The translations under genes were made by a program, and so were the position numbers. Of a stretch of 15,240 nt of DNA, positions 12,851 through 14,621 are shown piece by piece (the first letter of the stretch is position 1; every line of letters begins with the position of its first letter). Source of the stretch: Candidatus Heimdallarchaeota archaeon (lineage in GTDB: Archaea; Asgardarchaeota; Heimdallarchaeia; Heimdallarchaeales; Heimdallarchaeaceae); NCBI GenBank assembly GCA_019057375.1, contig DXJF01000025.1, positions 1 to 15,240 of the forward strand. Reading direction: 5' to 3'. The notes under the pieces are model-generated. The model was not told the origin of the DNA and made no database searches. It saw only the letters and a list, made by a program, of their open reading frames with translations.

Positions 12851-14621
12851 GATTTTTCCTTCCTTCTAGATTGTTAAAAATAACCTCTGCTTTCTCTTGT
12901 GGAAAGATTTCAACTAATTCTTTGATAGAGAGTTGGTTAACATGTTTTATGCTTTTTTTCTCTAATAAAGCAGAAATACTGATTGCTTCCTGATAAGAGC
13001 AATTTGTTAAGAACTGGATATAGATAGCTTTCTTATCATCCTCTTCTTGATGAGTAGATTCTTGTTCAAACTGAATTTTTCTTCCTTCTGATAATGATTT
13101 AGCTAGATTAACAAATGCCTTTGTACGAGAATTCATTTTTTCTTCAACATTTTTGTTAAAAATAACTTGTTGATTTTGAACAAGTTTCTGCTGAACTTTT
13201 TCATCTCTAATAATCTTACCTGCTGATTTTTCTCGATTTCGATATTTGTGGAAAACTCTTTCTTCTTGAGATCTATGAGTTATTAGAAAATAGATTTTTG
13301 ATTGATTATTTCTAGATTCCAAAAATGTTTCATACTTCGTGGGTGTATTGAAAAAGATTATTGAATCAGCTTTGGTTTTAACATAATGAGATGCAATTAT
13401 TACATCAATCTCACCAGAATCAAAAATCTGTTTAAGTTTTGTTCTTTCTTTTGATTGACTTTTAGGCAGAATTTTGCTTCTTAAACCAATCTCATCTAAG
13501 TATTTCGGTAGTTGTTTCAGAATACTTCTATGATTTGCAATTATGTAGAAATTCTTTAAGTTCAGCTTATTTTTCATCTGTGTGATTAGCTGTTCTATTC
13601 GTTTAAATTTAGGATGAATTGTTGATTTTGATAACTCAATTAGATTCTCATAAATTTCTTCAAAAACAGGTGTACGGGCAAAACTACTGATTTTTTTCTC
13701 TGTTTGATTCTTATTCTCTTTCTCCCTTTTTCTCAGTTTATCCATGTATTCTAAAGCAGATTTTGGACCTGAAGCTTCAACCAATTCCTTGATTGATATG
13801 AAATTGATGAGCTCAATAGCCTTTCTTATTAGTACTTGTTGTTCATCATAACCATATTGGTTTTTTAAACCTTGGACAAAATTTCTGAAATCCTTTCTTA
13901 CAGCTAGGGGTTTATCAACACCTTTAGTTTTGAGAAAGGTTTGATATTCTCTAATATATCGATTAACTTCAAGACAGAAGTTGTACATCTCCTTGTTTAT
14001 AGGTACAGTGATAACATCATCTCGAGCTGAAAAAGAATGACCATAAGGCAATATACTAGATTCAATATATTCTATTTTTGTAATAAGAAGATTTTCACAA
14101 ACTTCTATCAGGGAATCTGTATCTTGAAATATGTATCTTGTGAAACCAATGTTTCTGATCAAAACATCGTTTTTTCTGAAAATCTCCGTTAGCTGAACAG
14201 AAGCATGTTTTCCCTTTGAAAGGTGAGCATCAAAAAATAGCAAAACATGAAAATCCTTGGGGGAAACAACTTGCCTTAAAATATCATTTTTTAGTAACTG
14301 AGGAGTTAGAGCAATTACTTGAGAATCATCATACAGTCTCTTTCTTTTTTCTACAGATTGTGTAGATATAATATGATTCAGAATGCCATCTCGAAAACTC
14401 TCACTAATAGAACTAATTTGATCCCAAGTTTCAGTTTTATTAAGAACTAGAGCTACTTTCTTAAAATCATCCTTTTTATGAAAATAACTAATTAAAACTT
14501 CTAAAATAGTGTCGATAGTAAAGCTAACAGGATAGATGAGTAAAGTGTTATCCTTAACTACTGTTCCAAGTATCACCTGAGTATAAGTATCGATATTTTC
14601 ATTCATATAAGTCCCTTTCAT
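12837..14621 (-). CDS. Hef/FANCM (ERCC4-like helicase) homologue with inactivated helicase motifs, no nuclease domain and a diverged HhH-like C-terminus
   Basis: The Hef scaffold is recognisable: NTLLIYP, RKRLYDDSQVIALTPQLLKND, EVCENLLITKIEY, HPKF, FDSGEIDVIIAS and KIYFLITHRSQEE. Catalytic motifs are changed: PTGLGKT to PVSFTID, FDEAH to FFDAH, GLTAS to GFTRY, QRRGRTGR absent. ATG 14606 is an alternative start. Confidence 0.8.
   Translation of the reverse strand: MKGTYMNENIDTYTQVILGTVVKDNTLLIYPVSFTIDTILEVLISYFHKKDDFKKVALVLNKTETWDQISSISESFRDGILNHIISTQSVEKRKRLYDDSQVIALTPQLLKNDILRQVVSPKDFHVLLFFDAHLSKGKHASVQLTEIFRKNDVLIRNIGFTRYIFQDTDSLIEVCENLLITKIEYIESSILPYGHSFSARDDVITVPINKEMYNFCLEVNRYIREYQTFLKTKGVDKPLAVRKDFRNFVQGLKNQYGYDEQQVLIRKAIELINFISIKELVEASGPKSALEYMDKLRKREKENKNQTEKKISSFARTPVFEEIYENLIELSKSTIHPKFKRIEQLITQMKNKLNLKNFYIIANHRSILKQLPKYLDEIGLRSKILPKSQSKERTKLKQIFDSGEIDVIIASHYVKTKADSIIFFNTPTKYETFLESRNNQSKIYFLITHRSQEERVFHKYRNREKSAGKIIRDEKVQQKLVQNQQVIFNKNVEEKMNSRTKAFVNLAKSLSEGRKIQFEQESTHQEEDDKKAIYIQFLTNCSYQEAISISALLEKKSIKHVNQLSIKELVEIFPQEKAEVIFNNLEGRKNLVPN

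What the first reader, a model, noticed from the sequence alone, without database searches (positions are those of the whole stretch)
13200..14560. Targeted loss of ATPase motifs in an otherwise preserved Hef helicase fold
Seen: a 594-codon ORF without stops that keeps Hef structural segments in order, including an insertion domain between the RecA lobes and HPK. Walker A (residues 31-37, PVSFTID, no GK), Walker B (FFDAH), motif III (TRY), the motif V EEGLD segment and the motif VI arginine finger are all altered. Lesions concentrated on catalytic residues in an intact frame fit selection for a non-catalytic role better than neutral decay (inference). It may still bind branched DNA through the Hef-specific insertion domain.
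Basis: partly seen in the sequence, partly recalled or inferred. Interest (0 to 1): 0.7.

Follow-up and report, generated by a model that had tools for sequence, protein, structure and literature searches.

The report
ATPase-dead Hef paralogue coupled to XPD
In one family of Asgard (Heimdall) archaea, an extra copy of the fork-repair enzyme Hef has lost its ATP motor motifs and its nuclease but is still kept by selection, and here its gene overlaps that of an intact XPD helicase, so it is probably a non-catalytic DNA-binding partner.

Summary
Window 12837-14621 (-) is an open 594-codon frame, probably starting at M6. It aligns colinearly with Hef across RecA1, the helical insertion and RecA2 (hhalign probability 100%, E 6e-50). 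Motifs I, Ia, II, III, V and VI are substituted or deleted, and there is no ERCC4 nuclease. All 16 subfamily representatives examined share these losses.

The same genome also has a complete Hef. The dead copy is under purifying selection: codon-model omega is 0.12, against 0.074 for Hef, and every domain is 0.14 or lower. It was found in 21 of 83 genomes of the class, all in one family.

In two genera it overlaps an intact Fe-S XPD helicase gene by about 14 nt. In another genus it lies directly upstream of RadA.

On the tree it does not group with the resident Hef (AU p = 0.001). It sits next to a second, still active Hef paralogue ("Hef2") that is also XPD-linked in two other families. This placement carries a long-branch caveat.

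The best reading is a non-catalytic DNA-structure-binding or scaffold subunit of a repair module. Binding and partnership are untested. The HhH reading of the tail has no statistical support.

The scan had already reported this family from other genomes, with the same verdict.

The parts
12837..14621 (-). ATPase-dead, nuclease-less Hef paralogue (594 codons; the likely true start is the ATG at 14606, giving 589 aa)
   Evidence: ORF list and translation. Hef homology. Homologues start at M6.
14052..14606 (-). RecA1-like lobe (residues 6-190). Motifs I, Ia, II and III are lost; TPQxxxND (motif Ic) and the GKH block are kept.
   Evidence: Motif table, conservation profile, hhalign.
14511..14531 (-). 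Former Walker A / motif I, now PVSFTID (residues 31-37), with no GK(T/S)
14223..14237 (-). Former Walker B / motif II, now FFDAH (residues 129-133)
14133..14141 (-). Former motif III, now TRY (residues 161-163)
13617..14051 (-). Helical insertion domain between the RecA-like lobes (residues 191-335). It is more conserved than either lobe: 23% of its columns are invariant.
   Evidence: Colinear with Hef residues about 217-360, which include the Pfam PF21210 helical bundle of the resident Hef. Conservation.
13212..13616 (-). RecA2-like lobe (residues 336-470). It starts with the invariant HPK. The motif V EEGLD and motif VI GRTGR segments are deleted, and the THRSxEER block is kept.
12840..13211 (-). 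C-terminal region (residues 471-594): a conserved NQQ..F / MxxRTKA helix, a low-complexity linker and a 64-aa tail of unassigned fold. Several relatives lack the tail.
   Evidence: No HhH2 or Pfam match.
11069..12850 (-). Intact archaeal-type XPD/Rad3 Fe-S helicase gene (593 aa) with a TTG start
   Evidence: Pfam DEAD_2 and Helicase_C_2. Best PDB matches are archaeal XPD 3crv and 4a15. GxGKT, four Cys, DEAH and motifs III, V and VI are present in 13 of 13 orthologues aligned.
12837..12850 (-). 14-nt overlap between the dead-Hef stop codon (TGA 12837-12839) and the XPD start (TTG 12848-12850)
   Evidence: Sequence read. Equivalent overlaps of the match coordinates occur in the other genomes of genera g1 and g2.

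Best explanation
The gene encodes a pseudohelicase. It is a Hef/FANCM-family SF2 protein that keeps the RecA1 - helical insertion - RecA2 architecture. It can no longer bind or hydrolyse ATP, because motifs I, Ia, II, III, V and VI are substituted or deleted. It also has no ERCC4 nuclease.

It is an old paralogue, not a decaying copy of the resident Hef. It probably descends from a second, XPD-linked Hef lineage ('Hef2') that is still catalytically intact in two other families of the class.

The most likely mode of action (inferred, not shown) is as a non-enzymatic subunit that recognises DNA structure or acts as a scaffold. It would use the conserved insertion domain and the retained nucleic-acid-side motif Ic (TPQxxxND). 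Its role would be to hold or target a repair/recombination partner on branched or damaged DNA.

In this genome and in two genera, that partner is most probably the XPD 5'-3' helicase, which is translated from the overlapping downstream gene.
For: Shown:
- Homology and colinear architecture with Hef.
- Loss of all ATP-site motifs in 16 of 16 subfamily representatives.
- Only one ERCC4 domain in the genome, and it belongs to the full-length Hef on contig C47.
- Purifying selection: omega 0.12 overall and 0.14 or lower in every domain, against 0.074 for Hef.
- The frame is open in 21 of 21 carrier genomes.
- Conservation is concentrated in the insertion domain, motif Ic, the GKH block and the THRSxEER block.
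- The XPD gene lies directly downstream in 16 of 21 loci: 14 of 15 in genus g1 (the fifteenth is cut by a contig end) and 2 of 2 in genus g2.
- The overlap is 14 nt here, and match coordinates overlap by 8-11 nt in the other genomes.
- Between g1 and g2 the flanking genes differ, but the pair stays together.
- The XPD partner has every catalytic and Fe-S motif intact in 13 of 13 orthologues.
- Where the two genes are not adjacent, they lie on the same contig 24-30 kb apart.
- In genus g5 the dead Hef sits 368 nt upstream of RadA. In g4 an overlapping RecA-like AAA ATPase gene follows it.
- A ~600-aa XPD lies 0.5 kb from Hef2 in family f2 and 8.7 kb from Hef2 in two f7 genomes.
- The split {dead clade + Hef2 | 35 other Hefs} has 88/90 support.
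- The AU test rejects a clade of the dead copy with the family's own Hef1 (p = 0.001).
Against: - No binding, interaction or expression data exist.
- The gene is not adjacent to XPD in genera g3, g4 and g5, so an obligate XPD partnership is not family-wide.
- Adjacent genes are lost together when a contig is missing from an assembly. The co-absence of both genes in 7 g1 genomes therefore says little.
- The protein evolves 2-3 times faster than Hef or XPD. Identity to the window's copy falls to 41% within the genus, against 75% for Hef and 65% for XPD. This could mean a looser or changing role.
- The placement next to Hef2 joins long branches. The tree tool warns of long-branch attraction, and the AU group was named after I had seen the tree.
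- Pfam PF21210, the Hef insertion bundle, does not match any of the 30 members at E <= 0.1.
Confidence: 0.55

Rival explanations
1. It is a non-catalytic partner or regulator of the genome's genuine Hef. It would form a heterodimer with Hef, or compete with it, on stalled forks. This would resemble the way eukaryotic XPF-family enzymes pair with dead paralogues (ERCC1, EME1, FAAP24).
For: An intact Hef is present in all 17 carrier genomes I checked (G000; five; G002, G005 and G006 among the twelve). The two proteins are homologous and colinear. By eye, the tail has an A..LL...S..EL..KA..I spacing reminiscent of HhH2 (alignment).
Against: The tail shows no statistical similarity to Hef's HhH2 dimerisation domain: hhalign probability is 0.4%, and hmmsearch scores are at the level of reversed-sequence controls. 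It has no Pfam HhH hit. The nuclease-domain dimer interface is absent altogether. Some relatives lack the tail. The gene is never adjacent to Hef1; its linkage is to XPD or RadA.
Confidence: 0.13
2. It is a recombination mediator or accessory factor working with RadA or RadA paralogues rather than with XPD.
For: In G006 and G007 the gene lies directly upstream of RadA (HHH_5 + Rad51, E 9e-51) on the same strand. In G005 an overlapping RecA-like AAA ATPase gene follows it. The RadA orthologue is on the same contig, 13-50 kb away, in G005, G002 and G023.
Against: Adjacency to RadA is seen in one genus only (two genomes). In g1 and g2 the tight coupling is to XPD. Distances of 13-50 kb may reflect only general synteny within the family.
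Confidence: 0.12
3. It is part of a mobile or fast-evolving defence-type helicase pair rather than housekeeping repair.
For: The protein diverges quickly: 41% identity within a genus. The XPD partner matches a PADLOC type-IV DinG model at 2e-53. Both genes are absent from 7 of 25 g1 genomes.
Against: The dead Hef has no PADLOC match. The PADLOC hit is to a generic XPD/DinG model, and the partner's best solved relatives are archaeal XPD. Flanking genes are housekeeping and syntenic across g1. No CRISPR, nuclease or mobile-element genes were seen next to the pair.
Confidence: 0.05
4. It is a decaying pseudogene or a neutrally drifting duplicate.
For: Every catalytic motif is lost, and the protein is only about 19-25% identical to Hef.
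Against: Omega is 0.12, and 0.14 or lower in each domain. The frame is open in 21 of 21 genomes, which span five genera. There are 98 invariant columns in an alignment of 30 members.
Confidence: 0.02
5. It is still an NTPase that uses a non-canonical site.
For: None directly. Two members keep DEAH (P0016 and P0017).
Against: No member has a P-loop. The motif V and motif VI segments are physically deleted. The former ATP-site windows are the least conserved parts of the protein.
Confidence: 0.03

Closest known systems
[quoted passage not shown]
   Same: Homologous and colinear over RecA1, the helical insertion domain and RecA2. It keeps TPQxxxND, HPK, the ExxExxG segment of the insertion domain and the block after motif VI.
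   Different: It scores 94.7 bits against the family cut-off of 610. All ATPase motifs are lost. There is no ERCC4 nuclease and no detectable HhH2. It is a separate paralogue that coexists with a true Hef.
Helicase-like domain of eukaryotic XPF/ERCC4 (Rad1)
   Same: It has the same logic within the same superfamily: an SF2 helicase fold lacking the GKT of Walker A and the acidic residues of Walker B. The XPF domain is thought to bind ss/ds DNA junctions and partner proteins (passages read in PMC3488251).
   Different: XPF carries this domain fused to an active nuclease and HhH2. Here the dead helicase stands alone: the longest of the 11 subfamily representatives is 650 aa. No XPF chain appears among the 48 PDB matches of the family profile at E <= 1, whereas Hef, FANCM and Dicer do.
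FANCM / Mph1 / Fml1
   Same: FANCM is the second-best solved relative (PDB 9el5: 2.2e-7 for the single sequence, 2.1e-20 for the profile). FANCM also shows that half of a Hef-type protein can go catalytically dead and still function.
   Different: FANCM keeps the motor and has a dead nuclease. This protein is the reverse: dead motor, no nuclease. The FANCM-like arrangement is seen instead in the Hef2 of genome G001.
Other pseudohelicases (for example yeast Utp25)
   Same: An SF2 fold retained without catalytic motifs and used as a structural component. For PMC9539457 I saw only the title and the start of the abstract, in the listing.
   Different: Unrelated family and process (ribosome assembly).

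Membership tests
Hef (NCBIfam NF010337 equivalog) | Whole-protein score at or above the curated cut-off (610 bits) | tested here: not met
   94.7 bits. The genome's real Hef scores 883.6 bits.
Hef (NCBIfam NF010337 equivalog) | Functional SF2 ATPase motifs I, Ia, II (DEAH), III, V and VI | tested here: not met
   All are substituted or deleted in this protein and in 16 of 16 subfamily representatives. All 15 active Hefs aligned beside them keep the motifs.
Hef (NCBIfam NF010337 equivalog) | C-terminal ERCC4 nuclease domain (GDxn-ERKxxxD) | tested here: not met
   No ERCC4 match in the protein. The only ERCC4 domain in the genome is in the Hef on contig C47.
Hef (NCBIfam NF010337 equivalog) | C-terminal (HhH)2 domain | tested here: inconclusive
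   No significant match of the tail to Hef HhH2 (hhalign probability 0.4%; hmmsearch at the level of the reversed control) or to Pfam HhH models. A degenerate HhH fold cannot be excluded without a structure.
Hef/FANCM-type helicase fold | RecA1 - helical insertion domain - RecA2, colinear with Hef | tested here: met
   hhalign probability 100%, E 6e-50, residues 11-481 against Hef residues 21-522. PDB 1wp9 at E 4.7e-28 with the profile. This is sequence-profile evidence only; no 3-D model was available.
SF2 helicase domains in Pfam (DEAD PF00270, Helicase_C PF00271) | Score above Pfam's gathering threshold | tested here: not met
   Helicase_C scores 10.3 bits against 23.5, and there is no DEAD hit. 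Among the 30 family members, 25 match Helicase_C and 17 match DEAD at E <= 0.1, with best values of 1.4e-4 and 3.4e-5.
Eukaryotic XPF (ERCC4) architecture | Dead helicase-like domain fused to an active ERCC4 nuclease and HhH2 | tested here: not met
   There is no nuclease. No longer fused form appears among the exhaustive HMMER hits, where subfamily lengths are 260-650 aa. No XPF chain matched at E <= 1.
FANCM | Active translocase motor with a degenerate nuclease | tested here: not met
   The motor motifs are absent.
XPD/Rad3 (the neighbouring gene, 11069-12850) | DEAD_2 and Helicase_C_2 domains, four-Cys Fe-S cluster, Walker A, DEAH, motif VI | tested here: met
   Pfam scores of 52.8 and 81.5 bits are above the cut-offs. 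All motifs are present in 13 of 13 orthologues. The best solved relatives are archaeal XPD. The TIGR00604 rad3 score is 122 against a cut-off of 247, so it is a divergent member.

The most novel reading that the evidence does not exclude
Heimdallarchaeaceae run XPD as a two-subunit machine. A Hef-derived pseudohelicase, descended from an XPD-linked and initially FANCM-like 'Hef2', recognises branched or damaged DNA and loads or steers the XPD motor. This would be a dedicated archaeal XPD cofactor. It would also be a prokaryotic precedent, in the closest relatives of eukaryotes, for the eukaryotic habit of building XPF/FANCM-family repair complexes around catalytically dead paralogues.
Probability: 0.3. 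Interest if true: 0.8.

Novelty: new variant of a known kind. Interest (0 to 1): 0.6.

Why it matters
From my own knowledge, archaeal XPD is usually treated as a stand-alone helicase with no known partner and an unclear role. The same goes for the origin of the many catalytically dead members of the eukaryotic XPF/MUS81/FANCM superfamily (XPF helicase-like domain, ERCC1, EME1, FAAP24, FANCM nuclease), which is an open evolutionary question.

This family shows the same process, motor and nuclease loss under continued selection, in the archaeal class closest to eukaryotes. It offers a series of forms for comparison:
- an intact Hef2 in family f7;
- a Hef2 without a detectable nuclease in family f2;
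- the dead, nuclease-less form in family f1.

It also gives a concrete and cheap hypothesis, a dead-Hef/XPD complex, that can be tested with two recombinant proteins.

Tried and rejected
The ESM Atlas held no model for P0001 or P0004. It returned only generic DEAD/Hef clusters by features.

I took neighbourhoods from the genome search and the fetch from genomes instead.

3. The HhH2 reading of the 64-aa tail is left unassigned. hhalign of the tail profile against a 78-Hef profile gave a best local hit elsewhere in Hef, with probability 0.4%. hmmsearch of the tail HMM against 38 Hef/Hef2 sequences gave a top domain score of 5.7 bits, against 3.0 bits for reversed sequences. Pfam scans of five tails at E <= 10 gave only unrelated weak hits.

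4. The XPF-ancestor idea found no support. No XPF chain appears among the 48 PDB hits at E <= 1, and no fused nuclease form exists.

5. A defence-system reading found little support. PADLOC has no hit for the dead Hef, and the DinG hit for XPD is generic.

6. A wider repair island was not found. The flanks in G007, G005, G002 and G001 hold surface-protein, peptidase and unknown genes.

7. A PIP-box reading of the invariant NQQxIF block was rejected by eye; it does not fit QxxLxxFF.

8. dN/dS beyond the three closest genomes failed because synonymous sites are saturated (nan or -1; tree length 10.3). A first codon-model run failed on an upstream in-frame stop in G012. I repeated it after trimming six codons.

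9. Expression could not be assessed: no RNA holder was listed.

10. Literature. Four full-text searches listed no paper on an ATPase-dead Hef paralogue in Asgard archaea. Only listings and abstract starts were seen, except for PMC3488251, where I read the passages around 'helicase-like domain'. They are unlikely to bear on these claims, but an Asgard comparative-genomics supplement could list this family.
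Full report
**What is there.** The window is a whole 15,240-base contig (C120) of a 3.47-Mb archaeal assembly with about 32% G+C and 89% estimated completeness. On the minus strand, bases 12837-14621 form a 594-codon open frame. Its product matches three references:
- the solved helicase domain of Pyrococcus furiosus Hef (1wp9, E 1.2e-15, residues 13-412);
- human FANCM (9el5, 2.2e-7);
- the NCBIfam Hef model, at 94.7 bits, far below its 610-bit cut-off.

A profile of 30 family members raises the PDB matches to 4.7e-28 for Hef and 2.1e-20 for FANCM, followed by Dicer helicases. 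No XPF chain appears among the 48 hits at E <= 1. Profile-profile alignment against 78 full-length Hefs gives probability 100% and E 6e-50. It is colinear from residue 11 to 481 with Hef residues 21-522. That stretch includes the region where Pfam places the Hef helical bundle (PF21210, residues 236-346 of the resident Hef). The helicase architecture, with its insertion between the two RecA-like lobes, is therefore real at profile level.

**The lesions.** I aligned the protein with the genome's own active Hef and 14 other Hefs. The changes are:
- Motif I: LPTGLGKT is YPVSFTID.
- Motif Ia: APTKPL is LNKTET.
- Motif II: DEAH is FDAH.
- Motif III: TASPG is TRYIF.
- Motif V: the EEGLD segment is deleted.
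- Motif VI: the GRTGR segment is deleted.

All 16 subfamily representatives share the losses, including members only 26-33% identical to this one. Walker B varies freely among them (FFDAH, FANAG, IDEAH, VDHAH, FLQAE and others).

Several features are retained: TPQxxxND (motif Ic), an invariant GKH after the former motif II, HPK at the start of lobe 2, and THRSxEER after the former motif VI.

Quantitatively, I took the 102 columns that are at least 80% conserved in 38 active Hefs. The dead clade keeps the Hef residue in 21% of cells inside the ATPase motifs, 57% in motifs Ic and IV, and 39% elsewhere. Columns with at least 50% retention number 8 of 43 against 26 of 59 (Fisher p = 0.01). The lesions are therefore enriched at the ATP site, but the whole protein is strongly diverged, so 'otherwise preserved' overstates it.

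There is no ERCC4 nuclease. The only ERCC4 domain in the genome belongs to a complete 824-aa Hef on contig C47, which has all helicase, nuclease and HhH motifs.

**Is it under selection?** Yes. Among the three closest genomes, pairwise dN/dS (NG86) is:
- 0.10-0.17 for the dead copy;
- 0.055-0.086 for Hef;
- 0.04-0.08 for the neighbouring XPD.

These three pairs are not independent. A GY codon model on the same three genomes gives omega 0.120 against 0.074 for Hef. By domain it is 0.107 for RecA1, 0.143 for the insertion, 0.060 for RecA2 and 0.136 for the C-terminus. More distant pairs are saturated at synonymous sites.

The frame is open in all 21 genomes that carry it. The single 'stop inside', in G004, is the natural end of a tail-less form.

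The protein does evolve faster than its neighbours. For five genomes of the same genus, identity to the window's copy is 92, 93, 77, 52 and 41%. The figures are 97, 95, 89, 80 and 75% for Hef, and 92, 93, 86, 80 and 65% for XPD.

Within the subfamily, 23% of insertion-domain columns are invariant, against 16% and 12% for the two lobes (a short C-terminal helix is at 24%). The former motif I/Ia windows are the least conserved.

**Distribution.** Two searches agree on a narrow range.
- An exhaustive HMMER scan of 1.84 billion representatives found 11 proteins at E <= 1e-30 (260-650 aa). There is then a gap to ordinary Hefs at 1e-19.
- The word-indexed search found 30 relatives of 41-93% identity. 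Where their sources name them, the names are Heimdallarchaeota, Heimdallarchaeaceae or Asgard.

In the species-level genome set, the family profile at E <= 1e-30 matches 21 of 83 genomes of the class. All 21 are in one family: f1, with 20 of 30 genomes plus the window's own. The count is 0 of 52 in the six other families. Ten f1 genomes of 72-90% completeness lack a match.

**Context.** The stop codon (TGA 12837-12839) lies inside the next gene. That gene's TTG start at 12848-12850 gives a 14-nt overlap. It encodes a 593-aa XPD/Rad3 helicase with DEAD_2 and Helicase_C_2 domains. Its best solved relatives are archaeal XPD. Walker A, four Fe-S cysteines, DEAH and motifs III, V and VI are intact in 13 of 13 orthologues aligned.

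The XPD gene lies directly downstream in 16 of 21 loci: 14 of 15 in genus g1 (the fifteenth is cut by a contig end) and 2 of 2 in g2. Match coordinates overlap by 8-11 nt in the genomes where both matches run to their ends. Flanking genes are syntenic within g1, but only the pair itself is shared with g2.

In genera g3, g4 and g5 the two genes are not adjacent. In G005, G006 and G007 they lie 24-30 kb apart on one contig, and in G004 they are on different contigs. In G006 and G007 the dead Hef lies 368 nt upstream of RadA (HHH_5 + Rad51, E 9e-51). In G005 an overlapping RecA-like AAA ATPase gene follows it. The RadA orthologue lies 13-50 kb away on the same contig in G005, G002 and G023. Other flanking genes are not repair-related.

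Presence of the two genes agrees in 20 of the 21 dead-Hef genomes. The one exception among them, and the three genomes with XPD only, are all at contig ends. Seven g1 genomes lack both genes. Because the genes are adjacent, their shared absence from fragmented assemblies is weak evidence.

**Origin.** All 12 genomes sampled across families f1-f7 have the ordinary Hef ('Hef1'). A second paralogue ('Hef2', about 790-820 aa, helicase motifs intact) occurs in one f2 genome and two f7 genomes. The f7 Hef2 has an ERCC4 domain (105 bits). The f2 Hef2 has none detectable at E <= 0.01 but keeps weak HhH matches, which is a FANCM-like arrangement.

A ~600-aa XPD lies 0.5 kb from Hef2 in the f2 genome, in convergent orientation, and 8.7 kb from Hef2 in both f7 genomes.

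I built a careful IQ-TREE tree (LG+C20+F+G4 PMSF; 52 rows, 505 columns). The rows were 14 dead-clade members, 11 Hef1, 3 Hef2 and 24 unlabelled Hef representatives. Hef1 of G002 and G045 were left out because of in-frame stops.
- The dead clade is monophyletic (100/100) on a stem of about 2.1 substitutions per site.
- It attaches beside Hef2. The split {dead + Hef2 | 35 others} has 88/90 support.
- Forcing the dead clade together with the family's own Hef1 costs 34 log-likelihood units (AU p = 0.001).

There are caveats. The tool flags long branches meeting and compositional outliers, and I named the AU group after seeing the tree. Position and phylogeny together make it likely, though not proven, that the dead protein is the f1 descendant of an XPD-linked Hef2 lineage.

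**The tail.** Residues 531-594 are conserved within the subfamily, but three of the 30 aligned members lack them, as do the G004 and G005 proteins. However:
- hhalign against Hef gives probability 0.4%;
- an HMM of the tail scores Hef and Hef2 sequences no better than their reversed copies;
- Pfam gives nothing relevant.

I leave the fold unassigned.

**Mechanism.**

Shown: the protein is a selected, ATP-site-less and nuclease-less Hef-family paralogue, with its strongest conservation on the insertion domain and the nucleic-acid side. It is translationally coupled to an intact XPD in two genera.

Inferred: it acts without catalysis, binding branched or damaged DNA or bridging proteins, and most probably serves the XPD helicase. 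The precedent is the XPF helicase-like domain, which lacks the GKT of Walker A and the acidic residues of Walker B. That domain is thought to bind ss/ds junctions and partner proteins (passages of PMC3488251).

The rivals cannot be excluded without experiments. They are partnership with Hef1, a role with RadA, and a defence-type module. Neutral decay is effectively excluded.

**Novelty and prior notes.** Four full-text searches found no description of this family (I saw listings only). The scan itself had already reported the same family from other genomes of the same archaeal family. Follow-up reports reached the same verdict (e1-5637472, e1-5454181, e1-5454176, e1-5525948). A first-reader note on this same stretch proposed the dead-Hef/XPD module (e1-5718859).

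This report adds:
- the Hef2 link in families f2 and f7;
- the AU test;
- the RadA adjacency;
- per-domain omega;
- the motif-retention statistics;
- the negative test of the HhH reading.

I class it as a new variant of a known kind: a free-standing pseudohelicase of the Hef/XPF/FANCM superfamily.

Noticed in passing
L077 (G001:C135) 6568-8943 (+), with XPD at 9446-11206 (-): A second Hef paralogue ('Hef2', 792 aa) in a genome of a neighbouring family. It has all helicase motifs and weak HhH matches but no detectable ERCC4 domain, which is a FANCM-like arrangement in an archaeon. It lies 0.5 kb from a ~600-aa XPD gene in convergent orientation. Two large upstream genes on the same strand (1208 and 561 aa) have no Pfam match.
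   Followed up: partly
L059 (G075:C89) and L061 (G072:C21): The Hef2 of another family keeps the ERCC4 domain (105 bits), but its nuclease motif reads VEYK where Hef1 has VERK. An XPD gene lies 8.7 kb away in both genomes.
   Followed up: partly
L075 (G007:C1) 7086-8177 (-) and 8533-10332 (-); also L029 (G006): In the two single-contig genomes of genus g5, the dead Hef gene sits directly upstream of RadA (HHH_5 + Rad51) on the same strand, with a 368-nt gap.
   Followed up: partly
L076 (G005:C4) 9688-10731 (+): A 343-aa RecA-like AAA ATPase (AAA_25, KaiC and DnaB_C-type hits) overlaps the end of the tail-less dead Hef gene in genus g4.
   Followed up: no
window 11069-14621 compared with L014 (G012): Synonymous divergence of the dead-Hef/XPD pair between G000 and G012 is saturated (NG86 undefined; codon tree length 10.3). 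For Hef1 of the same genome pair, dS is about 1.3-1.4. This may be noise near saturation, or the pair may have a different history, such as exchange between species.
   Followed up: no
L047 (G002:C41) and L051 (G045:C8): The ordinary Hef gene has one in-frame TGA in G002 and two in-frame TAA in G045. These could be sequencing errors, disruption or recoding; I did not examine them.
   Followed up: no
window 11069-12850 (-): The XPD protein matches a PADLOC 'typeIV_DinG' model at 2e-53, although no CRISPR or cas genes are nearby. This looks like a generic XPD/DinG model hit.
   Followed up: partly
window 14748-15239 (+): A divergently oriented open frame runs off the contig end. It is conserved (49-84% identity) next to the dead Hef in three other g1 genomes.
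   Followed up: no
window 1114-2112 (+) and 275-3088: A 332-aa protein with a C-terminal 4Fe-4S dicluster domain lies among membrane or zinc-ribbon proteins (DUF973, Zn_Ribbon_1). Earlier notes call it reductive-dehalogenase-like; I did not examine it.
   Followed up: no
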